Origin: a bacterium
Lineage (GTDB): Bacteria; Patescibacteriota; Dojkabacteria; JAKAPS01; JAJZLI01
Direction: 5' to 3'
NCBI GenBank assembly: GCA_021816845.1
Contig: JAKAWT010000002.1
Coordinates: forward strand, 33,017 to 97,016
DNA: 64,000 nt
Shown here: in pieces, positions 10,644-58,001 of the stretch
Layout of the letters: each line of letters starts with the position of its first letter
Position numbering within the stretch: position 1 is the first letter of the stretch
Translations under genes and position numbers: made by a program
Notes under the pieces: model-generated
Seen by the model: only the letters and a program-made list of their open reading frames with translations
Told to the model about the DNA's origin: nothing
Database searches by the model: none

Positions 10644-11249
10644 CTAGATCTCACGAATCTTAATTCTCTTTCTATAAATTATATATATAATGATCACAAC
10701 TACAATAGCTACAGTTATAAATGTTAATGATTGTAGTATTTTCAACAATAAAGGAATATTTTCTCCTAGAGTGTATCCCAATATTCCATATAATGTTGCC
10801 CAAACTATTGCACCAGTTATATTGTATATAAAAAATTGCTTATAATCTAATTTGTGTATACCTGCTGTCACTGGAACAAACATTCTTAATAATGATACAA
10901 ATCTTCCAAAAAATACTGTTTTCATACCATACCTTTTAAAAAATCCTCCTGTATATTCTAAGTAATCTTTCTTTAAGGAAAATGTTTTATGGATATATAT
11001 TGATGCTCTCTTACCATATTTCCTACCTATTAGATATCCAAGATTATCACCTATAGATGCACCTAAGATTGCAAATAATATAACCAATGTAATATGAAAT
11101 CTTGTAGGTGCTAACGCTGCATATACTGCCCCAGCAATAAGTGAAGTTTCTCCTGGAAGAGGAACTCCAAGTGTTTCGATCATTATAAATAAAGCTATTA
11201 TTATATAACCATAATTATTTATAAGATTCATTATTAAATGTAGAAGCAT
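10644..11249 (-). CDS. DedA/TVP38 family membrane protein (paralog 1 of 3)
   Basis: IETLGVPLPGETSLIAGAVYA and FFGRFVSLLRMFVPVTAG. Multi-TM. Confidence 0.8.
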   Translation of the reverse strand: MLLHLIMNLINNYGYIIIALFIMIETLGVPLPGETSLIAGAVYAALAPTRFHITLVILFAILGASIGDNLGYLIGRKYGKRASIYIHKTFSLKKDYLEYTGGFFKRYGMKTVFFGRFVSLLRMFVPVTAGIHKLDYKQFFIYNITGAIVWATLYGILGYTLGENIPLLLKILQSLTFITVAIVVVIIIYIIYRKRIKIREI

Positions 11250-13601: not shown

Positions 13602-14219
13602 ATGTCTAGTAGTATTATTATTACAATAAGTAACTTGATTATTCATGTGATAACTAAGTTTTCATATACAGGGATTTTTCTATTTATGACCATGGAGAGT
13701 TTAAATATTCCTATTCCATCTGAAGTTGTAATGACATTCTCTGGTTTTTTAGTGGCTTTCGGTAAATTAAATTTTTATTTAGTTGTTATAGCTGGTACAT
13801 TAGGGAATCTTTTTGGATCAGTATTGTCATACTATATTGGAACTCTTGGTGAAGATTTTCTAGAAAAATATGGGAAATATTTGTTTATTAGTAAATCTGA
13901 CCTTGATACTGCTCACATATGGTTTTTAAAGTATGGAGATGTAACCATATTAGTCTCTAGATTTCTACCTATTTTTAGGACATTTATATCTTTTCCAGCA
14001 GGGATAGCTAGAATGGATTTTAGAAAATTTATTTTATATACATTTATAGGTTCACTAATTTGGGCTATAGTACTTACTTATATAGGATTTTTATTTGGAT
14101 ATCAGTGGCAATATTTTGCAAAAATAATAGAATCTCTGTCAAACTATATTCTTATTGTAATTATTATCGGATTAATTTTTATCATAATAAGACATATAAG
14201 GAATGTTAGGAGAGAATGA
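13602..14219 (+). CDS. DedA/TVP38 family membrane protein (paralog 2 of 3)
   Basis: FLFMTMESLNIPIPSEVV and LVSRFLPIFRTFISFPAG. TATATA hexamer 6 nt upstream of the ATG. Confidence 0.8.
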   Translation: MSSSIIITISNLIIHVITKFSYTGIFLFMTMESLNIPIPSEVVMTFSGFLVAFGKLNFYLVVIAGTLGNLFGSVLSYYIGTLGEDFLEKYGKYLFISKSDLDTAHIWFLKYGDVTILVSRFLPIFRTFISFPAGIARMDFRKFILYTFIGSLIWAIVLTYIGFLFGYQWQYFAKIIESLSNYILIVIIIGLIFIIIRHIRNVRRE

Positions 14220-18148: not shown

Positions 18149-18706
18149 ATGGTACTATCTGATGGAGATATATTGAAAGAAATAAAAAAAGGAGAGTTGA
18201 AGATAAAACCATTTAAAAAGGATTCAATACAACCTTCATCTTATGATTTACATATTTCATCTAAATTTTTAATTTTTAAGAACAGTAAAATACCATACAT
18301 TGATGTAAAGGAAGATATGGATAATACTGAACTTGTAGATGTTAAAGGTAAAGGTTTTTTTTTCCTCCATCCTGGTGAATTTGTACTATCTTCTACTTTA
18401 GAGTATATAAGTAATCCAGATTATTTGGTGGCTAGGATTGAGGGTAAATCATCATTAGGAAGGATTGGACTTATTATACACGCAACAGCAGGATTTGTTG
18501 ATCCAGGATTCAGAGGAACGTTAACTCTAGAAATGACAAATTTAATCAACACACCTATAAAAATATATGTTGGAATGAAAATAGCTCAATTAGCATTTTT
18601 TACTATGACTTCCCCTTCCAAAAAATCCTATGGAGAGTATAATAATAAATATAACAATCAAAAAGATCCAACAAAAAGCCATTATTTTAAAAATTTTAGT
18701 AAATAA
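18149..18706 (+). CDS. dcd: dCTP deaminase
   Basis: SSYDLHI and AGFVDPGFRGTLTLEMTN. 185 aa. Confidence 0.8.
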   Translation: MVLSDGDILKEIKKGELKIKPFKKDSIQPSSYDLHISSKFLIFKNSKIPYIDVKEDMDNTELVDVKGKGFFFLHPGEFVLSSTLEYISNPDYLVARIEGKSSLGRIGLIIHATAGFVDPGFRGTLTLEMTNLINTPIKIYVGMKIAQLAFFTMTSPSKKSYGEYNNKYNNQKDPTKSHYFKNFSK

Positions 18707-20752: not shown

Positions 20753-21853
20753 AATTGTCTGTATTATTATTTTACTTGCATTTTTTGGTAAATCTATTTT
20801 TTTTGTATTTTCCCTCTCCTGTAATTTTTTAAGCTCTACATTTAGTGTACTAAAAGATAATAATGATTCACTTATTATAGATATAGTATCAGAATATTTT
20901 CTTGCTATTTTTGCATTTTCATATTGCTCTCCAAAAGAACTTGACGTTATAGGTATTAATATGGCTTTTTTATTAAGGACTAATATCTCGTAAACAGTAT
21001 TAGCCCCTGCTCTACTGACTATTATGTCAGCCTTTTTAAAGACCTCTCCTATTTCATCGCCCCATATACCACGGCGTATTATATATCTTGCTTTTAAAAT
21101 CGCAGGTAGAGTCTCTCTTAAAATCGTAGCTTTTTTGTAGTCATCAAATATTGTGTTAGATCCAGTTTGGTGAATTATATTATATTGTTTTGATAACTTT
21201 TTTATATTTTTAAATACTATTTGGTTTATGATATGCGATCCTTGATTCCCACCTGTTATATATAACACAGGGAGATTTTTATTGAATTTAAAATTGTCAG
21301 TTTTAGATTTAAATATCTCTTCTCTTAAAATATTCCCCGTAAATATTATATTCTTATCTCTAATGCTTATTTTTTTAAAATATTTTTCTGTATCTTTCCA
21401 AGTTGTAAATATTGTATTTGAAAAAATTGAAGTTATCCTCGATGCCAAACCTGGGATTGAAGCTTGTTCATGGGTAAATACTTTTATCCTGAAAATACCA
21501 CCCCAGAAAACTATTGGTACAGATACATATGATCCAAAGGAAATTATCATTTCTGGCCTATATTTCACTATATAATATAATGCTTGAAAAAAACCTATTG
21601 GAATTTTCAAAAATGATATTATCCCTTTCACTGATAAAAACCTATATAACTTTCCAGTATTTAATGGCAAGAATTTTATATTATTTTTTTGTGCAAATTG
21701 ATATTCTTGAGACAGTGATTTATCAAATAATATTGTGTGTTTAATACCTACAAAGAATATATCCAGATTTTTTTTATTTTTGATACCATCATATATAGCT
21801 TGGGCTGGTGTTAAATGTCCTCCTATTAAAAAGATGGTATTTTTTCTTCTCAT
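20735..21853 (-). CDS. murG: MurG-like N-acetylglucosaminyl transferase (lipid II synthesis)
   Basis: FLIGGHLTPAQAI, YITGGNQGSHIINQ, AILIPITSSSFGEQYENAK. Adjacent to ftsW. Confidence 0.78.
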   Translation of the reverse strand: MRRKNTIFLIGGHLTPAQAIYDGIKNKKNLDIFFVGIKHTILFDKSLSQEYQFAQKNNIKFLPLNTGKLYRFLSVKGIISFLKIPIGFFQALYYIVKYRPEMIISFGSYVSVPIVFWGGIFRIKVFTHEQASIPGLASRITSIFSNTIFTTWKDTEKYFKKISIRDKNIIFTGNILREEIFKSKTDNFKFNKNLPVLYITGGNQGSHIINQIVFKNIKKLSKQYNIIHQTGSNTIFDDYKKATILRETLPAILKARYIIRRGIWGDEIGEVFKKADIIVSRAGANTVYEILVLNKKAILIPITSSSFGEQYENAKIARKYSDTISIISESLLSFSTLNVELKKLQERENTKKIDLPKNASKIIIQTILKNIT

Positions 21854-22974
21854 GTTTTTTTATTTATATTTAGTACAAAGCCTATTGCTGTTAATAGTAT
21901 TATAACAGATGATCCCCCATATGAAATCAAAGGCAATGGTATACCTGTTAATGGGATTATCCCAATATTAGCAGCTATGTTCAGCATCGCCTGAGCTCCT
22001 ATCCAGATACCAATGCCTGCAGCCATAAATTTACCAAATGAACTTCCAGATCTTATAGCTACCTTGAATATGAGATAAACAAGGTATAGGTATAGCACGA
22101 TTAAAAGGATACTCCCGATTAACCCCATCTCTTCAGCAAGTACAGCAAAAATTGAATCAGTAATCGATGTTGTGCCAACTAGATATTGATTTTTCTGTAC
22201 AGATTGTGTGAATCCAACGCCCAATAATCCGCCAGATCCTATAGCTATCATTATTTGATGCACTTGATATCCAGCACCCTGCAGGAAATTATTTGATTTT
22301 GATGAACTCAGGTAAGTTAGAAGCCTTTGTACTCTGTATGGTTCTATAACAATTGCTAAAACTCCAGCAAGTATAAAAGTGAAAAAAGATATTAATAAGT
22401 TAAGTTTAAGATATTTTGAACTGTCACCTAAAATCAACATGAATAATGCTATTAATATTATTATTATTGTTGTCCCTAAATCTTTTTCAAGTACAATTAA
22501 TCCTGCTATAAATGCAGTAATTGCTAGAAATGGCAATAATAATTTTTTCAAATCATCACTAAATGTTTTTATACTATCTATGATCTTTTGTCTTTTTACA
22601 AACCATGCAGATATGTATGTTATAAAAGCAAATTTAGCAAATTCTGAGGGTTGAAAATTAGCAAAATTTAGTAAATTTATCCATCTAGCAGATCCATTAA
22701 TTTTTCTCGATAGTACTATAACAACAATTAGTAAGAATATAGCTAATATCATGAGTAAAAATGAATATTTTTGAAATAGTTTGTAGTTGACTTTATATAT
22801 TATAAAACCAGTTATAGCACCAATAATCATCCATAAGCTTTGTAGCAATATATAATGATATCTTCCAGCATATAACCCTAATGATCCATCAAACACCATA
22901 ACTATGCCTATTATTGATATAATAATTGTTACTATGATGATTCTTTTTTGGAGATAATCTCTACTTACTTCCAT
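21850..22974 (-). CDS. ftsW: SEDS family lipid II polymerase/flippase (FtsW-like, murG-adjacent)
   Basis: IGSGGLLGVGFTQSVQK and GIIPLTGIPLPLISYGGSS. Confidence 0.8.
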   Translation of the reverse strand: MEVSRDYLQKRIIIVTIIISIIGIVMVFDGSLGLYAGRYHYILLQSLWMIIGAITGFIIYKVNYKLFQKYSFLLMILAIFLLIVVIVLSRKINGSARWINLLNFANFQPSEFAKFAFITYISAWFVKRQKIIDSIKTFSDDLKKLLLPFLAITAFIAGLIVLEKDLGTTIIIILIALFMLILGDSSKYLKLNLLISFFTFILAGVLAIVIEPYRVQRLLTYLSSSKSNNFLQGAGYQVHQIMIAIGSGGLLGVGFTQSVQKNQYLVGTTSITDSIFAVLAEEMGLIGSILLIVLYLYLVYLIFKVAIRSGSSFGKFMAAGIGIWIGAQAMLNIAANIGIIPLTGIPLPLISYGGSSVIILLTAIGFVLNINKKT

Positions 22975-23045
22975 ACAATTTTTATATCATAGTACAAAGT
23001 AATAACTCAAATTATTTAATTCCCTTGATATCCTGATTCAATAAT

Positions 23046-24326
23046 CTAGATCCTATTTTTGGTATGAATATTTTGTACTATACCTAGAGATATCAATATT
23101 GTTATTAAAGAAGATCCCCCATAAGATACTAATGGTAATGGAATACCTGTGACAGGTACAAAACCAATAGACATACCTATATTTATTACAAATTGGAAAA
23201 ATATCATTGTTATAATTCCGAAAACCAAAAGGAATGCAAATTTATTCTCAGTATTCTTTAAAATAAATAATAGTCTTGAAAATAATACGATGTATAAGAA
23301 CATAAAGACTATATCACCTATAAATCCAAAGTCTTCTATAAATGTAGAATATATAAAATCAGTAGTGTCTTCAGGTAAAAAATTTAAACTTGACTGCGTT
23401 CCTTTACCGTACCCTTCTCCCCATAACCCTCCAGATCCAATAGCAATTTTTGATTGCGTTGTCTGAAAATTTAGTGAGTTTGAATAATTATTTGAGGATG
23501 AAGATAGAAATCCAACGATTCTTTGTTTTTGATAATTTTTCATTAAATGATCCCACACAACAAATTTGAATGTAGATCCAAATAAAATCCCAAAGAGAAC
23601 TATGCCCAAGAATAAATAGGAATACATCTTCTTTCTAGATAGTTTATATAATATTGTCTCTAAAGCTAAAAAAATTAAAAATAAGGCAATATTTATTTTA
23701 AAAAATATCAGGTTCAAGTTAGCTGAAAGAAAATTTATACCTATAAATACTGTTATGAAAAGAGATGAAACTATGAATGTTAGGAATATTATTATTAATT
23801 TTATTTGATCATAATATGCGGCAAAAACAATAGCAGCCCAAATCACTACAATAACTATAGACGTACCTAAAGCTGGTTGTTTAAATACAAGTGCAACTAT
23901 AGGAAGGATTATTAAAAATCCTAAAAGTATTTTTTTAATTATTTTCTCCCCTTTTTGGAAAATAGTAAAAAAAGATGCAGTAATAATGATAATGACTATT
24001 TTTGCGAACTCTGCAGGTTGTATATCTATACCTCCAATCGTGAACCATCTGTGTGTATTATTTAATTTTATATTCAATATGTATATGAGTATAAGGAGGA
24101 TAAAAACAGCAGTATATGCTATCATCTGAAGGGATTTATATTTATAGATATTATAGTCAATTCCTATTAGAAAAAAATAAATAATTAATCCTAATATCAT
24201 AAATATAGTTTGTCTTTCTGCTATATAAGAATTATTGGTTGAAGATATAGTAACAATTCCTATTACCATCAATAGGATAATTGTTATAGTAAGAATGAAA
24301 TCTTGTTTAATGAATGCTTTAAACAT
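23046..24326 (-). CDS. Second SEDS family protein (RodA/FtsW paralog)
   Basis: IGSGGLWGEGYGKGTQSS and GFVPVTGIPLPLVSYGGSS. 426 aa. Confidence 0.8.
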   Translation of the reverse strand: MFKAFIKQDFILTITIILLMVIGIVTISSTNNSYIAERQTIFMILGLIIYFFLIGIDYNIYKYKSLQMIAYTAVFILLILIYILNIKLNNTHRWFTIGGIDIQPAEFAKIVIIIITASFFTIFQKGEKIIKKILLGFLIILPIVALVFKQPALGTSIVIVVIWAAIVFAAYYDQIKLIIIFLTFIVSSLFITVFIGINFLSANLNLIFFKINIALFLIFLALETILYKLSRKKMYSYLFLGIVLFGILFGSTFKFVVWDHLMKNYQKQRIVGFLSSSSNNYSNSLNFQTTQSKIAIGSGGLWGEGYGKGTQSSLNFLPEDTTDFIYSTFIEDFGFIGDIVFMFLYIVLFSRLLFILKNTENKFAFLLVFGIITMIFFQFVINIGMSIGFVPVTGIPLPLVSYGGSSLITILISLGIVQNIHTKNRI

Positions 24327-34585: not shown

Positions 34586-35812
34586 ATGATAGAAAGAGAT
34601 ATTCTACTGGAACTTAAACAAGGGTTAGATAATAATAAGACAACTATAGTTTTAGGTTCTCCAAGGGTTGGGAAAACTACTTTACTTGATATGATATCTG
34701 GATATATAAAAAATAAAAGTATAGGGAATTATGTATATATTGATTTTAAAATATATAGGAATGACTATTCAAAATTTCTAGTAGATCTAGATAATAATAC
34801 TAAGAAATTAAAATTGGAAAAAAGTAATAAAATATATCTTTTATTAGATAATTTCAATTTAAATAATCTGGAAAATAAATTGAATTTTGATAATATTTTT
34901 TATAAATGTATTATAACAAGAGGTTTATTTGATGTAGAAAATACAAATAATATTGAAGTTTTAAAATTATATACACTATCTTTTTTAGAATTTGCAAAAT
35001 ATAAAACACATTATCAATACCCTAAGATGAATAATTTTTTCGATATGTATCCAATATTAGCTTTTGATATCTTTAATGAATATTTAAGGTTTGGAGGATA
35101 TCCTGAAGTTGTATTAGAAGAGACAATTGAAGCCAAAGTAAAAGCACTTAAAGATATATATATTCAATCTATAGAGAAATCTAAATTCAAGAATATTTCT
35201 GGATTAGTAGATTTTCTAACATATATTGCAAATAAAGTTGGAAGAAATGTAAATACCGGATTCTTTACTATTGTTAGTGTATTCAAGGCTCAGGATATTA
35301 TAGATTACTCAACCTATTTACAAAAAATAGGAATTATAAAGGAATTATCTGATTTTAAAAATGAATACCATCCAATATATTATTTTACAGATTTAGGATT
35401 ACGTAACTACATATTAAATGAAAATTCAATAGAAAAACTTGATGATGACCATTATATATTCTCTAACTTTGTATTTATTATAATACTTCATATTTTTTCA
35501 AATTATAAAGAAGTTATATCAATAAAATATTTGAGAGGATATCAAAGAGTACGTTCAGAAATTATAGTTATAAGGGAAGATGGCCATGTTATAATAAGAC
35601 CGACAATATGGAATAGATTAGATCATATTAATGATACAATAGTATCATATATGAGCGATAGTAGGTTTAGAAATTTATTTATAGTAACTATAGCTGGATA
35701 TGATGATTTATTTTATGAAGATAAAAAAATTTCTAGAATTCCATACTATGAACTCTTTTATCTAAACCTTTTTTTAAATGATCAAAATACTCCAAGACAA
35801 CATAGCAAATAA
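34586..35812 (+). CDS. COG1373-type AAA+ ATPase with C-terminal DUF4143-like region
   Basis: P-loop LGSPRVGKTTLLD; LYTLSFLEF, matching the L(Y)PLSF.EF signature; YLRFGGYPEV. 408 aa. Confidence 0.6.
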   Translation: MIERDILLELKQGLDNNKTTIVLGSPRVGKTTLLDMISGYIKNKSIGNYVYIDFKIYRNDYSKFLVDLDNNTKKLKLEKSNKIYLLLDNFNLNNLENKLNFDNIFYKCIITRGLFDVENTNNIEVLKLYTLSFLEFAKYKTHYQYPKMNNFFDMYPILAFDIFNEYLRFGGYPEVVLEETIEAKVKALKDIYIQSIEKSKFKNISGLVDFLTYIANKVGRNVNTGFFTIVSVFKAQDIIDYSTYLQKIGIIKELSDFKNEYHPIYYFTDLGLRNYILNENSIEKLDDDHYIFSNFVFIIILHIFSNYKEVISIKYLRGYQRVRSEIIVIREDGHVIIRPTIWNRLDHINDTIVSYMSDSRFRNLFIVTIAGYDDLFYEDKKISRIPYYELFYLNLFLNDQNTPRQHSK

Positions 35813-46673: not shown

Positions 46674-47732
46674 ATGGCAAAATTCGCAAAAGATAAAACA
46701 GGCACAGACAATGTTGAAGACGTAGTAGAGGTAAAGGTTCAAGAAAAGAAATCTTTAGCTAATAGGCTATATTCCAAGTCAGCATTTTCTAATAAGGAAC
46801 AAAGACCTAAAGTTATTATATCTACTATTGTATTATTACTTTTTGTTATAGTGGTAGCTTTATTTTTTGTTATGTATAATTTTGGTACATATATACCAGG
46901 AGTTTCTACTGTTGTAGATAAAGTTCCTATATTATCTAATCTTGATAGATCAGCACAGAATATATTACCTAAAACTGCTACATCAGAACAAAATGTTACT
47001 GGATATCATTTTAATGTTGATTTTGCACTTAATTCTCAAGGTTCATCTACAACTAGTGGTAATATTGCACAATCGTTCTCTGGTAATGTAGATTTTTCAA
47101 ATCCTAAGAATATACAACTTCAGTCTTTGCTTTCAGAAAAAATATCTAGTTCTAAGTCCGCTTTTAATATTGATGGAAAAGTAATACAGACAAATAATAA
47201 AATGTATTTAAACTTTTCTAAATTTCCTTCTGTATTGAATACAGGAATAAAATTAAATCAATGGGTTACATTACCAAAACCACAGTTTAATTTTTTGGAA
47301 GATTTAACAAATGAATCAAATATGCCTAACATTAATACTCTCCAAGTTGCAATGAAGGGAAATGAAATACTTAATGGTACATCTGTTACCAAATATGAGG
47401 TTACTTATCCTAAAGCTGATTTTTCTTCTATAAATCTTTCTAAGGCACTAGAATCATTGTCAGGAATGTCTAATATGCAAAGTATTATATCATCAAAGAC
47501 TATAACAGTTGATGAATGGGTTGGGGTTGCAGACAATAAAATATACCAAGAATCTGTTAAATTTTCAGTTGCAGGCCAGACTCCTACAACACTGTATTTT
47601 GGTATATCAATGAGTAGTTTTAACTCACCATTTAGTATTACTGCTCCATCTAAGACTACAACAGTTTCAGGTAGTAAATCTACTTCGTCATCTGGATCTT
47701 CTGGATCTGGATCCACATCAAGTAAAAAATGA
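46674..47732 (+). CDS. Hypothetical N-terminally anchored extracytoplasmic protein with Ser-rich C-terminus
   Basis: Single TM helix at about residues 45-70, then 280 aa of polar sequence ending SGSKSTSSSGSSGSGSTSSKK. I recognise no family. Confidence 0.5.
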   Translation: MAKFAKDKTGTDNVEDVVEVKVQEKKSLANRLYSKSAFSNKEQRPKVIISTIVLLLFVIVVALFFVMYNFGTYIPGVSTVVDKVPILSNLDRSAQNILPKTATSEQNVTGYHFNVDFALNSQGSSTTSGNIAQSFSGNVDFSNPKNIQLQSLLSEKISSSKSAFNIDGKVIQTNNKMYLNFSKFPSVLNTGIKLNQWVTLPKPQFNFLEDLTNESNMPNINTLQVAMKGNEILNGTSVTKYEVTYPKADFSSINLSKALESLSGMSNMQSIISSKTITVDEWVGVADNKIYQESVKFSVAGQTPTTLYFGISMSSFNSPFSITAPSKTTTVSGSKSTSSSGSSGSGSTSSKK

Positions 47733-48250
47733 ACAAAAAATATATAATTAGTGTACTTGTTTTTATATATATTGTAATTACAGGAGTATTGATTTATTTT
47801 ATTTTGTATCAGAAATCCCATCCAGTATATGTATACAATGTTGAAAAACCATTAACGAATAATAATAACATATATAGAATATCCCTGGATGAGCAAATTA
47901 TGCAAAATCTCAATACAATACGAAGTGCTTTTTTATCTACCCCTGGATATAACAAACTAAATGTATCAAGAGTATCTTTATTCAAACAGACATCTATTAA
48001 TGGTGTAAGTGGTAGTGTACCTTCATGTTATCCTGTATATTCCAATGCAAGTGATAGATGTACTTCTCTATCTAGTATATATCCACAGATACAAAAACAT
48101 TTGTCAAATGTAAGTATAGATTTCTCCTCTCCTCATAATATAAGTAATTATTATGTAGTTCTATATAACAATCATTATTATTTTTTGGATATTAACTATA
48201 GACATACAATACAAAACAATGGATTCCCTGTAATATATATTGAAAGTTGA
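47729..48250 (+). CDS. Hypothetical N-terminally anchored small protein
   Basis: 4-nt ATGA overlap with the upstream gene. N-terminal TM helix. 173 aa. Confidence 0.5.
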   Translation: MNKKYIISVLVFIYIVITGVLIYFILYQKSHPVYVYNVEKPLTNNNNIYRISLDEQIMQNLNTIRSAFLSTPGYNKLNVSRVSLFKQTSINGVSGSVPSCYPVYSNASDRCTSLSSIYPQIQKHLSNVSIDFSSPHNISNYYVVLYNNHYYFLDINYRHTIQNNGFPVIYIES

Positions 48251-48322
48251 TTTTTAAGCTTCAATTATGCAATAATTCTCTTGTCATTAGAATAGAATCT
48301 AAATGTAATAACCTATATCTAA

Positions 48323-48396
48323 GGTTGCGTGGTGTAGTGGTCTAACATGTCTCCCTGTCACGGAGAAGATCGACGGTTCGAATCCGTTCGCAACCG
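48323..48396 (+). tRNA. tRNA-Asp (anticodon GTC)
   Basis: Manual fold: acceptor GGTTGCG/CGCAACC, anticodon stem TCTCC/GGAGA, loop CTGTCAC. No CCA. Confidence 0.75.
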
Positions 48397-48466
48397 TTTT
48401 TCAATGTAGGTAGATAAATCAATTTTAATCCTTTCATTGTTTATTACATTTTTATATAATAAAACA

Positions 48467-48997
48467 ATGGGTGATAAAATTTTAAAAAATTCATATACTA
48501 TATCCTTTATTATAGAATTTGCAATTTTCCTCGCTATTGGTATTTTTTTTATTGTAGTTATAATCAATACAGTTTTCCCTTATGTGAATAAAATTCATTT
48601 CTATCACACCCAATCATCAGTTTCCCTAAATTCTACTATAAATACTATTACTCCGAAACAAGAAAAAGTTAATAAAAATATTGAAGAATCTTTTGTTCAA
48701 AAATTTTATACTATCTTATCAACTTCTACTGGTTTAAACGATAATATAGGATCATATCTTACTTCATCATTTCAGGATACCATGATAGCTCAATATCAAA
48801 ATTCTAATTATACTAAGGATATAGAACAGAATCTCGGAATCTCAGGATTTCCTCCTAATATACATTTTTATCAGAGTTTTGCAGGATATTTTGTTGTGTA
48901 TGGCAATTATAACGGATCGATAGAATATCTTAATATATATGTACAGAAGATTAATGGAAAATACTTTGTGAATAATATTACCCTTTCTTCTGGTTAA
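48467..48997 (+). CDS. Hypothetical N-terminally anchored protein (start trimmed to MGDK)
   Basis: TATAAT at 48455-48460 lies 6 nt before the ATG at 48467. The longer ORF start (48437) would sit 40 nt after the tRNA. TM helix then polar domain. Confidence 0.5.
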   Translation: MGDKILKNSYTISFIIEFAIFLAIGIFFIVVIINTVFPYVNKIHFYHTQSSVSLNSTINTITPKQEKVNKNIEESFVQKFYTILSTSTGLNDNIGSYLTSSFQDTMIAQYQNSNYTKDIEQNLGISGFPPNIHFYQSFAGYFVVYGNYNGSIEYLNIYVQKINGKYFVNNITLSSG

Positions 48998-49506
48998 ATA
49001 CCATGTATTTTTTTTATTGATTTTTTTCTATAAAATCCTTTATATGTGTTGTTCTTGTCTTTTGAATCAGTATTAAAGTACACACTTTGGGCTATTCTTG
49101 CTCGCTTCTTAATTCTAATCCCATTTTTATTTAAAACTTCAAGTATTGTTGTTATATAACCTTGATACCCTGGATCTATTAGTCCAGCTATGATTACTGC
49201 TCCACATCTATTTAAAGACGTACGAGACACTATATATCCTGCTATATTATATGGTATGTTTAGTTTTTCCTTAAATTCAACCATATAACTACCTTGCTTT
49301 AGGATATACCAATCTTTGCTAACCTTTATTTCAGATATTTTTGGTAATATTCTATCAACATTGTCAAAATCCACAGAGCCAATACTCTCCCACTCATATA
49401 TTTTTTCTACAGTCAAATCAAAGCCAGCTTGTTGCATTTGTACATCATAATTAATATAGTTTGATATCAATTTATTAGATTTAATTGTATCTTTTGATAA
49501 TAACAT
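48994..49506 (-). CDS. dUTPase/dCTP deaminase superfamily protein (second paralog)
   Basis: AGFDL (motif I-like) and AGLIDPGYQGYITTILEV (motif III-like). 170 aa. Confidence 0.65.
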   Translation of the reverse strand: MLLSKDTIKSNKLISNYINYDVQMQQAGFDLTVEKIYEWESIGSVDFDNVDRILPKISEIKVSKDWYILKQGSYMVEFKEKLNIPYNIAGYIVSRTSLNRCGAVIIAGLIDPGYQGYITTILEVLNKNGIRIKKRARIAQSVYFNTDSKDKNNTYKGFYRKKSIKKIHGI

Positions 49507-50752: not shown

Positions 50753-51433
50753 TTGGATATTTCTAAACTATTTTTCACAATATCAAATTTAATAACTATT
50801 AATGATATCACATTCATAGTAAATACTGTTGTACTGCCTAATCTTTATGTATTTATCTTTCTATATATAATGTTTGAAGAGATGGGATTCCCTATGATTA
50901 TACCAGGAGAATTTTTTGTATTTTTAACAGGGTATGAAATAGCTCTTGGTAAAGCTGATCCAATAATTTTATTTTGTTTAATACTACTTGCTACTTTTAT
51001 AGGGTCAAGTGTGCTCTATTCGATTTTATCATGGAAAGGTATTAATTTTATAGAGAAATATGGGAGATATATCATGATGCCTAAATCTAAGATCGAAAAA
51101 GTTCAGAATTGGTTTCTACAAAATGGAGTTAGAGCAATTATTTTAGGAAGATGGATTTTCGGTCTCAGGATTATTACGAATATAGTAAGCGGAATTTTTA
51201 GGTATCCATATAAAAAATTTGTATTTTTGACTATGTTTGCAACCTTCTTTTGGATATTATTCTACTTTATTTTGGGAATATTTTTTGGTAAATATTATAC
51301 CTCTATAATATCTTTCTTAAGCCATTTTAATAGCATAGTTATAGAATTAGTTTATCTTACCTTTATAACTTCAATAACCTTTTTATCTCTACATATTACA
51401 AAAAAATTAGGAGAACGTAATAGACCTAATTAA
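50753..51433 (+). CDS. DedA/TVP38 family membrane protein (paralog 3 of 3)
   Basis: FEEMGFPMIIPGEFFVF and ILGRWIFGLRIITNIVSG. Confidence 0.75.
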   Translation: MDISKLFFTISNLITINDITFIVNTVVLPNLYVFIFLYIMFEEMGFPMIIPGEFFVFLTGYEIALGKADPIILFCLILLATFIGSSVLYSILSWKGINFIEKYGRYIMMPKSKIEKVQNWFLQNGVRAIILGRWIFGLRIITNIVSGIFRYPYKKFVFLTMFATFFWILFYFILGIFFGKYYTSIISFLSHFNSIVIELVYLTFITSITFLSLHITKKLGERNRPN

Positions 51434-53660
51434 TACTGTTACAATCACCTGCTGGAATCTGAGTACTTCCTGATGGTATTAAAGTTGATGGGTATGCAGT
51501 TATTTTCATTTTAGAATTCAGTGGAGTTATGTATGCAATAGTTGAATTTGCTGGTATAGCTATGTATGAATAGGATCCTGTAGGTTGATTCTGTATTAAA
51601 CATACCTCCATAGTTTGATTTGCAGAAGCTCCAGTTAATATTTGTAATTCATAATTTGCTGTTGTTATATTAGGTGAAGATGGCGTTATTAGACTATTTA
51701 TATTTATTAAAAGATCAGGGAAAGATGAATGTGTACTTGAAGATGCTGTAGTTGTAACCTGTGCGTTTATAGAAGTATACTCTACTAAATCTTGATATCC
51801 TCCAAATGAAAAAAGGTCTGAAGCTCCTGATCCAGTATATACTGAATAACCCATTGCTGATGTTGGGGCAAGCATTGTGGTTGTAGGTTGCCAAGAAGAT
51901 AAATTACTAAGCGTTGAATAGTATGTACTATTTGATACCTGTCCATTTAATATCCCTCCAAAAGAATACAGATAATTGGTACCTGCATCTGCTGGATCTG
52001 GAAGTATACCTATACCTTCATTGTAAATACCACCTGGGAATGTTGATTGTTGTACCATCTGTATTTGTGATGGTAGTACAGTCCCCTGATATGTTGTATT
52101 AGAGCTAGGGAATGAAAATCCTATATAACTAATTTGTCCTGTTTGGGGATTTGTTACCATTATTTGCATATTATCTCCTTGGTTCCACACCCAACTACCA
52201 TAATCACCTCCATAATTAGCATAAGGATGATTAATAATGATTTGACTGTTATTCCATGATTGGTAATCTACTGTTACAACATTTACATATTGTCCACCTT
52301 CCCAACCCGCCATCCAACCACGTGTTTGATCAAAAAGAGAGAAATATGGGGAATCCCCTATTCTTGGAGATAGGTATCCTAGATTACAACCATTAATAAT
52401 ATATTCTGTATTCCCAGCACTACCACCACTTCCACTTGATACTACATCTAGTGATGTTATAGAGGTATTTGTACTACTGGTACAATTAGGCTGTGCAACT
52501 AGGTTGTATACATATATGGAATTACTTCCACCTCCTCCATTATTTCCTCCTACAATGTAAGCATATCCATTTGAGACGGATACTGTTATACCTGATCCAT
52601 ATAAGGATTGTGGGATTGTTCCTACTTGTGTCCAGCTAGATAATCCTCCGCCTGGTTCTATATTTGCTTCATATATTGTATTCAATGGACTCCCTTGTGA
52701 ATTTCTACCTCCAAACAGGAAAATATTATTTTGGTATTCCACTGCTGATGCGTGGTATACATTTTGTGGTAAAGATGATGTCTGACTCCATGAAGCTATA
52801 TTAGATAGTGGTGCAACATAAACATTGGTTGTAGGGCTAGAATAATAGTATGTGTATGATTCCCACTGACAGGTATATTCCCACCAATATCCATTGACGA
52901 GGTTAGTATGGACATAAACTAATTTCCATCCACAAACATATCTGCCAGAGACTGTATATGAACTATTTACTCCTCCGATGCTATAAATATATGAACCGTT
53001 CGTGACTACAGAATTATCATATACTGCACTTGGTAAGTTTGAGACATTGCTCCAGTTGGTAGTCCCAGTTTGAGACATAGTTGTTTCATATACAGAGCTT
53101 AATGCTGTGCTTCCATTTAGTCCTCCAATCATGTATTCATTTGATCCATAGCTTGTATTCCCTGCATTTGATACATCTTGTGGAAGTGATTGTGTCCCTT
53201 GAGATGTCCAATGATTTAGAGTGCCGTTATATGTAGTAGTTGTTGTTGTATGAGATGTTGATGTAATACTTCCTTGAAGATTTATTGCCATAGATTGTCC
53301 TTGGTTCACCGTTCCTAAAGCTTCATTTTGTGGAACTATATTATATGTACATGTAGGTTTTGGAGGTGTGGCCTTTATATTTCCAGTAGTACAATTGGTA
53401 GGTACTGTTGGTGTAGGCAGAGGTTGAGGAATAGGGTTTGTAGTACTTGTAAATTCATTACTCCCTATATATGATAGCCCATTTTGAATACCAGATTGTG
53501 CTGCCGAAAACGCTATTTGTCCAGAGTAAGTTAATGAATTTTGAGAAGTATTTAGTATTACTTTAGATGTCAGTGAAAGCATCATGATCAATAGGACTAT
53601 AGCAATAAGCATAACTATTATAAGGGTCTGTCCTTTTGAATCAATTTTACCTATATTCAC
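51426..53660 (-). CDS. Large surface protein: pilin-like N-terminal anchor plus Kelch-type beta-propeller repeats
   Basis: N-terminus KIDSKGQTLIIVMLIAIVLLIMMLSLTS. Kelch-like repeats: YIYSIGG, NNIFLFGGRNSQGSPLN, GYAYIVGGNNGGGG, YLYSFGG, LFSFGGY. 744 aa. Confidence 0.5.
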   Translation of the reverse strand: MNIGKIDSKGQTLIIVMLIAIVLLIMMLSLTSKVILNTSQNSLTYSGQIAFSAAQSGIQNGLSYIGSNEFTSTTNPIPQPLPTPTVPTNCTTGNIKATPPKPTCTYNIVPQNEALGTVNQGQSMAINLQGSITSTSHTTTTTTYNGTLNHWTSQGTQSLPQDVSNAGNTSYGSNEYMIGGLNGSTALSSVYETTMSQTGTTNWSNVSNLPSAVYDNSVVTNGSYIYSIGGVNSSYTVSGRYVCGWKLVYVHTNLVNGYWWEYTCQWESYTYYYSSPTTNVYVAPLSNIASWSQTSSLPQNVYHASAVEYQNNIFLFGGRNSQGSPLNTIYEANIEPGGGLSSWTQVGTIPQSLYGSGITVSVSNGYAYIVGGNNGGGGSNSIYVYNLVAQPNCTSSTNTSITSLDVVSSGSGGSAGNTEYIINGCNLGYLSPRIGDSPYFSLFDQTRGWMAGWEGGQYVNVVTVDYQSWNNSQIIINHPYANYGGDYGSWVWNQGDNMQIMVTNPQTGQISYIGFSFPSSNTTYQGTVLPSQIQMVQQSTFPGGIYNEGIGILPDPADAGTNYLYSFGGILNGQVSNSTYYSTLSNLSSWQPTTTMLAPTSAMGYSVYTGSGASDLFSFGGYQDLVEYTSINAQVTTTASSSTHSSFPDLLININSLITPSSPNITTANYELQILTGASANQTMEVCLIQNQPTGSYSYIAIPANSTIAYITPLNSKMKITAYPSTLIPSGSTQIPAGDCNSIN

Positions 53661-53741
53661 AATTATAATATAATATATACCAAAAAAGTATGCAATACTA
53701 TATTGTGATAGTATGTTAGGTGTTATTTATGGTCTTTTAAT

Positions 53742-54416
53742 ATGAAACATTTTAAAATGAAAATACTACTTAGAATTCTCTTATTAATTGTATTTATAGG
53801 ACTCGCTATATTTATATATACTTATTCTAAAATCAAATATGTAAATATTAGTGGAAGCATATATTCAAGCAATCTATCTTCTTTGAATAATCAAATAAAA
53901 TCTACTATAAAAGGTCAAAATATTTTTTTTACTTCTAATAAAACTTTTTATAATGATATACAGAAAGTATATCCTTTCTTTAGTTTTAATGATCTTAGAA
54001 TAGAAAAAAAATATCCAAATCAGGTATCAATATATATAAAAAGTTACAGAGTATTATTTTCATATAGTTTTAGAAATAATATATTTTTTGTATCTAATAA
54101 TGGTGATACTGTTAAGGCTTATAAAGACAATAATATAGTTAACATAGTATCTTATATAAAACCCAAACACACACAAATTTTAGATATGGTGAAACTAGTT
54201 ACTGATGTTAACAATGAATATCTATTATCTGTCTCATCATATAACTTATATAGTTCATATGTACAACTTAATATGGGATCAAAAACAGCAATTTTAACAT
54301 TTGAAAGATCTATAAAATCCCAAGTATTGGAACTAAATGATGTTCTTCAGACAGTAAATATGGCAGGATGTAAAGTAATCAATGTTGAATTTAGCAGGGT
54401 GTTCTGTGGGGCTTAG
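53742..54416 (+). CDS. FtsQ/DivIB-like cell division protein (single TM + POTRA-like region)
   Basis: N-terminal TM helix, then about 190 aa. Position immediately upstream of ftsA-ftsZ. Confidence 0.55.
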   Translation: MKHFKMKILLRILLLIVFIGLAIFIYTYSKIKYVNISGSIYSSNLSSLNNQIKSTIKGQNIFFTSNKTFYNDIQKVYPFFSFNDLRIEKKYPNQVSIYIKSYRVLFSYSFRNNIFFVSNNGDTVKAYKDNNIVNIVSYIKPKHTQILDMVKLVTDVNNEYLLSVSSYNLYSSYVQLNMGSKTAILTFERSIKSQVLELNDVLQTVNMAGCKVINVEFSRVFCGA

Positions 54417-56993: not shown

Positions 56994-58001
56994 ATGAATT
57001 TAGACTTAGATTTGAACTTAAGTTTATTCAAATACTCTGTAGATATTATTACACTAAGCTCTCTTTTGAACTCTCTTGAAATTCCAAAAAAAATTACAGA
57101 TGATCTAACGATCAAAGATTTTGATCAGTTTGCAAATTTATTAAATTTAGATGTATCTAATACTAATATACGTGATTTTGCTCTAGGATATCACAGGATT
57201 GATACTGGTTTTGCTAATACAATGCTTAGTTCTTATAGAAGTATCAATGAACTTGTTAGATCTTTGTATCAGGATAAAGGGAATGTATTTACAGTATCTA
57301 CAATATTAAGGATGAATAAAGTCTTAACTGATAAAACATTTGAAGTATGGGAGAGTGGTAAATTTAGGACTATTGAATTTCCTTATCAAGGAGAATACGA
57401 TTTCATAAGGGGAGAAGATTTATCATATGATACAATCTCAACTGACATAAATATGTTAGTCGATTTTTATCAAGATTCACAATATCCTAATATATTGAAA
57501 ATACCTATAATTGGATACAACCTTTTAAAACTAAAGCCATTTTCTGTATTAAATGATTTCACTATACTTTTTATAATGAAATCTTTGATGATAGAGATTG
57601 AGATATTTAATGATTTATCTCTAGTAAAAATATTTTCAGAAAATCTTGAAAATATGCAAATTTCGAACCAATCTTTAGATACATGGGTTGGAAACTTTTT
57701 TAAATACATATACATTGAATTATTAGAGATTTATGATTTTATAAATAAATATATTTCATTAGAAAAACGAAGATTAAATTCAGATAAAATTGTATCAATA
57801 CTGTCGGATAGACAAAAGAAAGCATTTTTGTTTTTTGTAGATCATAGGACTCTTACAAGACAGGAGTATTCGAGGATGTTTAAAATATCTCCTATGACAG
57901 CATTTAGAGATTTAGATATGATGAAGGAGTTAGGAATACTAACTGTTTTTGGTAAAGGTAGAGGTACTAAATATACTATAATGGAGAAATATTTATTATA
58001 G
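56994..58001 (+). CDS. Fic-family-like protein with degenerate active-site motif and C-terminal winged-HTH
   Basis: The C-terminus LSDRQKKAFLFFVDHRTLTRQEYSRMFKISPMTAFRDLDMMKELGILTVFGKGRGTKYTI matches the Fic C-terminal wHTH pattern. The core-motif position reads LKLKPFSVLNDFT instead of HPFx(D/E)GNGR. Confidence 0.4.
   Translation: MNLDLDLNLSLFKYSVDIITLSSLLNSLEIPKKITDDLTIKDFDQFANLLNLDVSNTNIRDFALGYHRIDTGFANTMLSSYRSINELVRSLYQDKGNVFTVSTILRMNKVLTDKTFEVWESGKFRTIEFPYQGEYDFIRGEDLSYDTISTDINMLVDFYQDSQYPNILKIPIIGYNLLKLKPFSVLNDFTILFIMKSLMIEIEIFNDLSLVKIFSENLENMQISNQSLDTWVGNFFKYIYIELLEIYDFINKYISLEKRRLNSDKIVSILSDRQKKAFLFFVDHRTLTRQEYSRMFKISPMTAFRDLDMMKELGILTVFGKGRGTKYTIMEKYLL

What the first reader, a model, noticed from the sequence alone, without database searches (positions are those of the whole stretch)
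51426..53660. 744-aa Kelch-repeat surface protein with a pilin-like N-terminus
The N-terminus is KIDSKGQTLIIVMLIAIVLLIMML: a charged stretch, a Gly, then about 20 hydrophobic residues. This resembles a class III (prepilin/pseudopilin-type) signal, but it lacks the bacterial +5 Glu and has Gln at +1 after KG as in archaeal-type pilins. At least five Kelch-like blades follow (xYxxGG). A pilus-tip or cell-surface beta-propeller adhesin would be notable in a reduced-genome organism. It is encoded divergently from the ftsQAZ cluster.
Basis: partly seen in the sequence, partly recalled or inferred. Interest (0 to 1): 0.55.

Follow-up and report, generated by a model that had tools for sequence, protein, structure and literature searches.

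The report
Kelch-propeller PilX-like minor pilin
This is a 744-residue surface protein of an ultrasmall (Patescibacteria) bacterium whose N-terminus belongs to the PilX/GspK class of pilus-tip subunits and which carries a six-bladed Kelch propeller, so it is most likely an adhesin shown on type IV pili; a close analogue has already been studied in Saccharibacteria.

Summary
The ORF (51426-53660, minus strand, 744 aa, GTG start), its N-terminus and the Kelch repeats are all real. There are six blades rather than five.

- **N-terminus.** It gives no direct Pfam or NCBIfam hit. An exhaustive profile search links it to more than 150 Patescibacteria proteins, and 61 of 88 sampled match Pfam PilX_N. 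Relatives sit as the last gene of canonical type IV pilus operons. The Gly before the hydrophobic helix is the only invariant residue of the family. The missing Glu5 is typical of the PilX/PilK/GspK cap subunit, not an archaeal trait.
- **Pilus machinery.** The same genome encodes PilM, PilN-like and PilO-like proteins 5-8 kb beyond the window edge.
- **Architecture.** The Kelch propeller is inserted into a small core protein. In related genomes the same slot next to ftsQAZ holds 218-aa (no cargo), 403-aa, about 670-aa and 744-aa versions.
- **Closest precedent.** Nanosynbacter lyticus TM7x PilX2, a minor pilin with a non-canonical signal and a beta-propeller that is needed for host binding.

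Verdict: a new member of a known kind, of moderate interest. Cleavage and incorporation into pili remain untested.

The parts
51426..53660 (-). Whole gene: 744-aa PilX_N-like protein carrying a Kelch propeller (stop codon at 51426-51428)
53631..53660 (-). Residues 1-10: short, positively charged leader MNIGKIDSKG ending in Gly10, the putative prepilin-peptidase site
   Evidence: Gly10 is the only invariant column among 75-88 family members. The leader itself is poorly conserved, at 30-40%.
53460..53630 (-). Residues 11-67: long alpha-1 helix. It has a hydrophobic half (11-33) and an amphipathic half with the AFsAAQsGIQ motif (the PilX_N signature AFxAAEaG).
   Evidence: AlphaFold predicts a helix at 8-67. 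In the 218-aa orthologue the helix is 9-67 with pLDDT 88-97. Residues 11-33 are 83% identical in orthologues whose FtsA is only 63-65% identical. PilX_N link.
53250..53459 (-). Residues 68-137: N-terminal part of the small beta 'core' module, with the invariant pair Cys90/Cys104
   Evidence: Aligns to residues 1-120 of the Kelch-less orthologue P0013 (43% identity, E 7e-25). Invariant Cys.
52488..53249 (-). Residues 138-391: Kelch blades 1-4
52827..52970 (-). Residues 231-278: Tyr/Trp-rich long hairpin in blade 2. Its length and sequence are hypervariable among orthologues.
   Evidence: 27% Y+W here, against 47-48% over 46-73 residues in P0003 and P0007. Modelled as strands 231-251 and 256-276.
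52068..52487 (-). Residues 392-531: 140-residue insertion between blades 4 and 5, containing Cys393 and Cys425. It is present only in the window protein, P0002 and P0003. Its fold is unknown.
   Evidence: Absent from P0004-P0010. pLDDT about 25. No Pfam or PDB relative.
51741..52067 (-). Residues 532-640: Kelch blades 5-6
51429..51740 (-). Residues 641-744: C-terminal part of the core beta-sandwich, with the invariant pair Cys687/Cys740
   Evidence: Aligns to residues 135-212 of P0013 (32% identity, E 3e-8). Strands at 649-743.
53661..53741 (.). 81-bp divergent intergenic region shared with ftsQ (53742-54416, +)
   Evidence: The same arrangement is found in all orthologous loci.

Best explanation
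The gene encodes an 'orphan' modular minor pilin of the PilX/PilK/GspK class.

Proposed mechanism:
1. The protein inserts into the membrane through its N-terminal hydrophobic helix. It is probably cut after Gly10 by the prepilin peptidase.
2. Because it lacks Glu5, it takes the top position of the minor-pilin complex that primes a type IV pilus. It then stays at the pilus tip.
3. Its small beta-sandwich core carries an inserted six-bladed Kelch propeller. The propeller has a hypervariable Tyr/Trp-rich hairpin and a further 140-residue insertion. Together these form the ligand-binding head.
4. The most likely ligand is a glycan or protein on a host cell or a surface, as expected for an episymbiotic Patescibacterium.

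Shown: N-terminal homology to PilX_N proteins that sit in pilus operons, the domain anatomy, the nested insertions, and the presence of pilM/N/O in the genome.

Inferred: cleavage, tip location and the adhesin role.
For: 1. The N-terminal profile (residues 1-135 of six orthologues) finds at least 150 proteins at E<=1e-3 among 1.84 billion. Of 88 sampled, 61 match Pfam PilX_N (best E 1e-7).
2. Relatives occupy the PilX position in pilus loci:
- L016: three N_methyl pilins, then P0028, then a response regulator.
- L012: a GFTLIE pilin, then P0025, then a response regulator, then a PilN-like gene.
- L019 (Saccharibacteria): pilB-pilT-pilC-pilD, then six genes with a GFTLIE-type prepilin N-terminus and one other small gene, then a 297-aa protein beginning RRSGQTLIIVM.
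3. Gly10 is the only invariant column of the family. Q11, A50, A53, A54 and G57 are at least 90% conserved.
4. Helix residues 11-33 are 83% identical in orthologues whose FtsA is 63-65% and FtsQ about 30% identical, while the rest of the protein is 30-46% identical. This is the conservation pattern of pilins, not of plain membrane anchors.
5. A 60-residue N-terminal helix is predicted.
6. The same genome has a response regulator, PilM (TIGR01175 175.5 bits against a cut-off of 133; PF11104 148.5 bits), a PilN-like protein (INLIPRK followed by a transmembrane segment) and a PilO-like protein. These lie 5.1-7.8 kb beyond window position 1, on a contig 100% identical to the window over 13,083 nt.
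7. Extracellular hallmarks: four Cys pairs, a DsbA-like gene nearby, GAST content of 39.7% against 20-33% for cytoplasmic proteins, and only 5.6% charged residues.
8. Precedents: TM7x PilX2 has a non-canonical signal and a beta-propeller, and its deletion halves host binding (PMC11623550). The tip complex is capped by a subunit lacking Glu5 (PMC10191384). GspK has a large domain inserted in its pilin module (PMC7248040, PMC8179133).
9. JGI names orthologue P0004 'Tfp pilus assembly protein PilX'.
Against: - The window protein itself gives no direct PilX_N, N_methyl or GspK hit, even at E<=10. The link is transitive.
- GspK hits in relatives are far below the cut-off (12-26 bits against 130).
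- The +1 residue is Gln, not Phe or Met. According to PMC11623550, SignalP 6.0 did not predict a PilD-type signal peptide for TM7x PilX1 or PilX2.
- The gene is not in a pilus locus. It lies about 60 kb from pilMNO, in a conserved slot next to ftsQAZ.
- PilB, PilC, PilD and a major pilin of this genome were not seen.
Confidence: 0.6

Rival explanations
1. It is a membrane-anchored surface adhesin. The PilX_N-like helix acts only as an uncleaved signal anchor, and the Kelch head sits on the cell surface without ever entering a pilus.
For: - No canonical class III motif: Gln at +1, no Glu5, and no N_methyl or TIGR02532 hit.
- TM7x PilX1 and PilX2 were likewise not predicted to be PilD substrates (PMC11623550).
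- The gene lies outside any pilus locus.
- The core fold is not recognisably pilin-like.
Against: - A plain anchor would not keep an invariant Gly, nor 83% identity in its hydrophobic helix when FtsQ is about 30% identical.
- Homologues with the same N-terminus are the terminal gene of minor-pilin operons.
- Lack of Glu5 is expected for the cap subunit (PMC10191384).
Confidence: 0.25
2. It is a core priming minor pilin whose main role is pilus assembly. The Kelch head caps or stabilises the tip, as the inserted domain of GspK does, or binds the cell's own envelope. It is not a host adhesin.
For: - PilX/GspK-class subunits prime assembly, and the GspK insertion is thought to shield the tip (PMC7248040).
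- The 218-aa orthologues with no cargo show that the conserved function lies in the core.
Against: - The cargo is swapped or lost between close relatives, and it carries hypervariable Tyr/Trp loops. This pattern fits changing external ligands rather than a fixed structural role.
- Relatives encode a PilX_N protein inside the pilus operon, which could do the priming. Whether this genome has one is unknown.
Confidence: 0.1
3. It is a cell-division or envelope protein that works with FtsQ/FtsA/FtsZ, as its conserved divergent arrangement with ftsQ might suggest.
For: The slot next to ftsQ is conserved in every orthologous locus examined, at FtsA identity of 63-65%.
Against: - Synteny of the whole region (gatCAB to uvrA) is conserved in these relatives, so adjacency carries little information.
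- The gene evolves much faster than its neighbours, gaining and losing whole domains.
- No similarity to any divisome family was found.
- More distant homologues lie in pilus loci.
Confidence: 0.05

Closest known systems
PilX2 (and PilX1) of Nanosynbacter lyticus TM7x (Saccharibacteria), PMC11623550
   Same: - A large minor pilin of a Patescibacterium with a lollipop N-terminal helix.
- The signal is not recognised as a canonical PilD site.
- It carries an added beta-propeller (PilX2) or jelly-roll (PilX1) head.
- It is proposed as the tip adhesin, and deleting pilX2 halves host binding.
   Different: - The propeller here is six-bladed Kelch, not seven-bladed RCC1.
- It is inserted inside the core module rather than appended at the C-terminus, and it carries a further nested 140-residue insertion.
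- The gene is an orphan next to ftsQAZ rather than part of a pilin locus.
GspK / PilX (P. aeruginosa) / PilK (Neisseria): the Glu5-less core minor (pseudo)pilin that caps the tip complex
   Same: - Short leader ending in Gly, a hydrophobic alpha-1 helix and no Glu5.
- The AFxAAExG-type motif of PilX_N.
- In relatives the gene follows three N_methyl minor pilins.
- GspK also has a large domain inserted into its pilin module.
   Different: - The window protein has no HMM hit to PilX_N or GspK. Hits in relatives are below the curated cut-offs.
- The inserted domain is a Kelch propeller rather than the alpha-helical domain of GspK.
- A canonical pilin fold could not be confirmed for the core.
PilY1 (P. 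aeruginosa) / PilC (Neisseria) tip adhesins
   Same: A beta-propeller displayed at the pilus tip together with PilVWX-type minor pilins, with a role in adhesion.
   Different: - PilY1 is not a pilin. It has a Sec signal and docks onto the minor pilins, whereas here the propeller and the PilX-like module are one polypeptide.
- The protein has no Pfam hit to the PilY1/PilC family.
Modular type IV pilins, e.g. Streptococcus sanguinis PilB (vWA) and PilC (lectin), PMC8179133
   Same: A small pilin module grafted to a functional binding module. These pilins are predicted to sit at the tip. The class is widespread, with hundreds of architectures, including in Patescibacteria.
   Different: - Those pilins have canonical class III signals (IPR012902) with the cargo appended at the C-terminus.
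- This protein has a PilX_N-type N-terminus and internal, nested cargo. A survey based on IPR012902 would therefore miss it.

Membership tests
Pfam PilX_N (PF14341) | Direct HMM match of the N-terminus at or above the gathering score (25.5 bits) | tested here: not met
   No PilX_N hit for the full protein at E<=1, nor for residues 1-140 at E<=10.
Pfam PilX_N (PF14341) | Homology to bona fide PilX_N proteins by profile search | tested here: met
   The profile of residues 1-135 finds at least 150 proteins at E<=1e-3. Of 88 sampled, 61 hit PilX_N at E<=0.01, with a best E of 1e-7. hhalign against their alignment gives 99.6% probability, although that set was selected with the query profile.
Type IV pilin (class III signal peptide) | Short charged leader ending in Gly(-1), followed by about 20 hydrophobic residues | tested here: met
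   MNIGKIDSKG|QTLIIVMLIAIVLLIMMLSL. The Gly is the only invariant column of the family.
Type IV pilin (class III signal peptide) | Phe/Met-type +1 residue, Glu at +5, and an N_methyl (PF07963/TIGR02532) match | tested here: not met
   The +1 residue is Gln and the +5 residue is Ile. No N_methyl or TIGR02532 hit. Lack of Glu5 is, however, the rule for the cap subunit (PMC10191384).
Type IV pilin (class III signal peptide) | Cleavage by a prepilin peptidase and incorporation into filaments | not testable with these tools
   Needs proteomics or genetics. No PilD gene of this genome was seen in the roughly 84 kb examined.
Type IV pilin (class III signal peptide) | Lollipop fold: an alpha-1 helix of more than 50 residues packed on a beta-sheet head | tested here: inconclusive
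Type IV pilus system | Pilus assembly machinery encoded in the same genome | tested here: met
   Contig L020, 100% identical to the window over 13,083 nt, carries a response regulator, PilM (TIGR01175 175.5 bits against a cut-off of 133), a PilN-like gene and a PilO-like gene 5-8 kb outside the window. PilB, PilC and PilD were not reached.
GspK/PilX-class core minor pilin | Gene located after the other core minor pilins in a pilus or T2SS operon | tested here: not met
   This gene is an orphan between ftsQ and a VTT/DedA gene. The feature is met by its relatives P0028, P0025 and the L019 protein.
GspK/PilX-class core minor pilin | Sequence match to the GspK model (NF037980, cut-off 130 bits) | tested here: not met
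   No hit for the window protein. Relatives give recurrent hits to profile positions 2 to about 66, in the same register, at only 12-26 bits.
Kelch beta-propeller | Kelch repeat HMM matches above the gathering score, and a six-bladed propeller fold | tested here: met
   PF24681 scores 70.3 bits against 50, and Kelch_1, Kelch_3 and Kelch_4 are above their cut-offs. Six GG motifs. Foldseek to KLHL12, Keap1 and SAKe6 gives E about 1e-12 and TM about 0.75.
PilY1/PilC tip adhesin | Match to the PilY1/PilC C-terminal propeller family | tested here: not met
   No such family appears among the Pfam hits at E<=1. The propeller is Kelch-type.

The most novel reading that the evidence does not exclude
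The slot next to ftsQ holds a conserved PilX-like scaffold into which binding modules are inserted, nested and lost between close relatives: none (218 aa), an unknown C-terminal domain (403 aa), Kelch (about 670 aa), and Kelch plus a further domain (744 aa). On this reading it is a swappable pilus-tip cassette that sets host or surface specificity in this Patescibacteria lineage. Its divergent promoter shared with ftsQAZ might couple display of the adhesin to cell division.
Probability: 0.15. Interest if true: 0.6.

Novelty: new member of a known kind. Interest (0 to 1): 0.35.

Why it matters
Patescibacteria depend on attaching to other cells, and their pilus-tip proteins are the leading candidates for host recognition. 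So far only TM7x PilX2 has been tested.

This protein and its slot-mates are a natural series of one PilX-like scaffold with different heads. That series could be used to map which head binds what.

Standard pilin detectors (N_methyl/IPR012902, SignalP, PilFind) miss this class. Surveys of modular pilins therefore undercount it.

Tried and rejected
- **Direct family scans of the N-terminus.** Pfam and NCBIfam gave no pilin hit.
- **Word-indexed homologue search with residues 1-140.** It returned nothing, so one search was wasted.
- **PDB sequence searches.** The N-terminal profile, the 140-residue insertion and the extra domain of P0016 gave only chance-level hits.
- **Archaeal-type pilin reading.** Rejected, because the Gly-Gln motif is the consensus of a bacterial PilX_N subfamily found in Patescibacteria pilus operons.
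- **The 631-aa neighbour of pilM as a second PilX.** Rejected, because its full sequence has an ordinary Sec-type signal.
- **Other pilins or pilus genes inside the 64-kb window.** None found.
- **Extension on the right side of the window (L021).** It showed only housekeeping genes.
Full report
**1. Observation**

The ORF at 51426-53660 (minus strand) is 744 aa long with a GTG start. Orthologues begin at the same point, with leaders of 5-13 residues ending in KG. The N-terminus reads MNIGKIDSKG-QTLIIVMLIAIVLLIMMLSLTSK.

Pfam finds Kelch repeats above threshold: PF24681 scores 70.3 bits against a cut-off of 50, and Kelch_1, Kelch_3 and Kelch_4 also pass. There are six x[FIVL]GG motifs. The AlphaFold model (mean pLDDT 61, propeller 70-90) superposes on six-bladed Kelch domains at Foldseek E about 1e-12 and TM about 0.75.

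The gene is divergent from ftsQ-ftsA-ftsZ and convergent with a VTT/DedA gene and a Bax1-I gene.

**2. Source**

The window is part of contig DAHVID010000002.1 (287,171 nt) of GCA_027322105.1, a Patescibacteria MAG with about 29% GC. The 64 kb hold housekeeping genes only. None of the Pfam scans of its ORFs finds pilus machinery. No other ORF in six frames has a pilin-like N-terminus.

**3. The N-terminus**

Direct scans give nothing: no PilX_N, N_methyl or GspK hit, even for residues 1-140 alone.

The protein has only about ten orthologues (41-100% identity). In these, residues 9-65 are almost invariant. JGI names one of them 'Tfp pilus assembly protein PilX'.

A profile of residues 1-135 was searched exhaustively against 1.84 billion representative proteins. 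It finds at least 150 proteins at E<=1e-3, mostly of 260-330 aa, with the consensus GQxLxIVxL...SLASRxITN...SQRAFsAAEaGIExAL. Of 88 sampled, 61 match Pfam PilX_N (best E 1e-7).

The Gly is the only invariant column. Gln at +1 and the A..AA..G motif are at least 90% conserved. Several members give weak hits, all in the same register, to the first 60 or so positions of the GspK model, at 12-26 bits and far below the cut-off.

**4. Context of those relatives**

| Locus | Gene order |
|---|---|
| L016 | three N_methyl pilins, then P0028, then a response regulator, then a 183-aa gene |
| L012 | a KGFTLIELL pilin, then P0025, then a response regulator, then a PilN-like gene (INLLP) |
| L019 (Saccharibacteria MAG, found through the exact peptide GQTLIIVM) | pilB, pilT, pilC, a small gene, pilD, then six genes with a GFTLIE-type prepilin N-terminus (one reads SAFTLIE) and one other small gene, and last a 297-aa protein starting RRSGQTLIIVMVIMVISLS with a PilX_N hit |

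The family is therefore the PilX/PilK/GspK-equivalent minor pilin of Patescibacteria pili.

Reviews state that the tip complex is capped by a subunit lacking Glu5 (PMC10191384), and that GspK carries a large domain inserted in its pilin module (PMC7248040, PMC8179133). The missing Glu5 is thus a class feature, not an archaeal trait.

**5. Conservation pattern**

Relatives whose FtsA is 63-65% identical have FtsQ about 30% and the VTT protein about 50% identical. In those same relatives, helix residues 11-33 are 83% identical and residues 34-67 are 65-74% identical. The leader (30-40%) and the rest of the protein (30-46%) are much less conserved.

A hydrophobic helix that is better conserved than FtsA is what pilins show, because of filament-core packing and peptidase recognition. 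Plain signal anchors do not show this.

**6. Pilus machinery in the genome**

A look-up of the window's first gene returned a contig (L020) that is 100% identical to the window over 13,083 nt and extends 9.6 kb further. Between 5.1 and 7.8 kb outside the window it encodes:
- a response regulator;
- PilM (PF11104 148.5 bits; TIGR01175 175.5 bits against a cut-off of 133);
- a PilN-like protein (MKTGINLIPRK followed by a transmembrane segment);
- a PilO-like protein (weak T2SSM hit).

PilB, PilC, PilD and a major pilin were not reached, because the look-ups were exhausted.

According to PMC11623550, pilB, pilT, pilM and pilC have homologues in most Patescibacteria phyla.

**7. Anatomy**

Related genomes at the same FtsA distance hold different proteins in the same slot between ftsQ and the VTT/Bax1-I genes:

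| Size | Proteins |
|---|---|
| 218 aa | P0013, P0014 |
| 403 aa | P0016 |
| 663-682 aa (Kelch) | P0007, P0009, P0010, and the L018 protein |
| 744 aa | this protein, P0002; P0003 is 746 aa |

P0013 aligns to residues 1-128 of the window protein (43% identity, E 7e-25) and to residues 660-733 (32%, E 3e-8). The core is therefore the N-terminal helix plus a small split beta module. The Kelch propeller (138-640) is an insertion in that core. Residues 392-531 are a second insertion inside the propeller, found only in the three closest orthologues.

Blade 2 carries a long Tyr/Trp-rich hairpin that varies in length and sequence: 27% Y+W here, against 47-48% over up to 73 residues in relatives.

Several features fit an extracytoplasmic, possibly shed, protein:
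- four Cys pairs, two of them invariant in the core (90/104 and 687/740);
- a nearby DsbA-like gene;
- 39.7% Gly+Ala+Ser+Thr;
- only 5.6% charged residues.

**8. What did not fit**

The gene is an orphan about 60 kb from pilMNO. The +1 Gln is unusual. SignalP 6.0 did not predict PilD-type signal peptides for TM7x PilX1 or PilX2 (PMC11623550).

Cleavage and pilus incorporation are therefore inferred, not shown.

**9. Comparison with what is known**

The closest studied case is TM7x PilX2. It is a minor pilin with a non-canonical signal and a seven-bladed RCC1 propeller, it is required for efficient host binding, and it is proposed as the tip adhesin. PilX1 carries a jelly-roll head (PMC11623550).

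The present protein works like that, and like a fusion of PilX with a PilY1-type propeller. It differs in three respects:
- propeller type (six-bladed Kelch);
- topology (nested internal insertions, as in GspK, rather than a C-terminal graft);
- location (an orphan next to ftsQAZ).

No paper in the library mentions Kelch together with pilin and Candidate Phyla Radiation.

**10. Verdict**

The protein is a new member of a known kind, the modular PilX-type minor pilins of Patescibacteria.

| Claim | Confidence |
|---|---|
| The N-terminus is homologous to PilX_N proteins | about 0.9 |
| It functions as a pilus-tip subunit with a binding head | about 0.6 |
| Main rival: an uncleaved membrane-anchored adhesin | about 0.25 |

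Interest is moderate (0.35). The cargo-swapping slot is the most interesting aspect.

Noticed in passing
L020 1820-4546 (5.1-7.8 kb upstream of window position 1, same genome): Type IV pilus alignment-complex cluster: response regulator, then PilM (TIGR01175 175.5 bits), then a PilN-like gene and a PilO-like gene, directly upstream of rpsP.
   Followed up: yes
L020 3-1817 (protein P0161, 631 aa): Large Cys-, Asn-, Ser- and Thr-rich secreted protein with an ordinary Sec-type signal and no Pfam or NCBIfam family. It lies immediately upstream of the response regulator and pilM. It is conserved at 80-86% in relatives, and one orthologue is on the 574,532-nt contig that also carries P0003.
   Followed up: partly
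window 56994-58001 (+): 335-aa protein with no Pfam hit directly after ftsZ. It is present at the same place in all related loci (L004, L005, L010), so it may be a lineage-specific partner of the division cluster.
   Followed up: no
window 46674-48997 (+): Three consecutive small membrane-anchored proteins (352, 173 and 186 aa) with no family assignment. They are syntenic in relatives (L005, L010).
   Followed up: no
window 52827-52970 (-), residues 231-278 of the protein: Tyr/Trp-rich hairpin in Kelch blade 2. In orthologues it expands to 73 residues with 47% Tyr+Trp, which is unusual low-complexity aromatic sequence inside a propeller. P0007-P0010 have a second such insert in blade 5.
   Followed up: partly
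L010 5555-6766 (protein P0016, 403 aa): The slot orthologue carries a C-terminal domain of about 190 residues instead of Kelch. That segment gave no PDB sequence relative, and the full protein gave no Pfam or significant NCBIfam match.
   Followed up: partly
L005 2807-4825: 672-aa protein built of repeats of about 45 residues (YRGDMxKTFxNISAVxQM...PEGWxxFHGNTTEFRxLA). It is inserted between gatC and dsbA in a relative and is absent from the window.
   Followed up: no
window 34586-35812 (+): AAA_14/DUF4143 ATPase gene wedged between mutS and mutL, overlapping the start of mutL. A similar gene sits elsewhere in relative L004.
   Followed up: no
window 21850-24326 (-); 18149-18706 (+) and 48994-49506 (-); 10644-11249 (-), 13602-14219 (+), 50753-51433 (+): Paralogue sets in a reduced genome: two adjacent FtsW/RodA genes, two dCTP-deaminase/dUTPase-like genes, and three VTT/DedA genes.
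   Followed up: no
L004 1494-2773: An AbiEii toxin gene with an upstream partner, inserted next to gatC in a relative and absent from the window.
   Followed up: no
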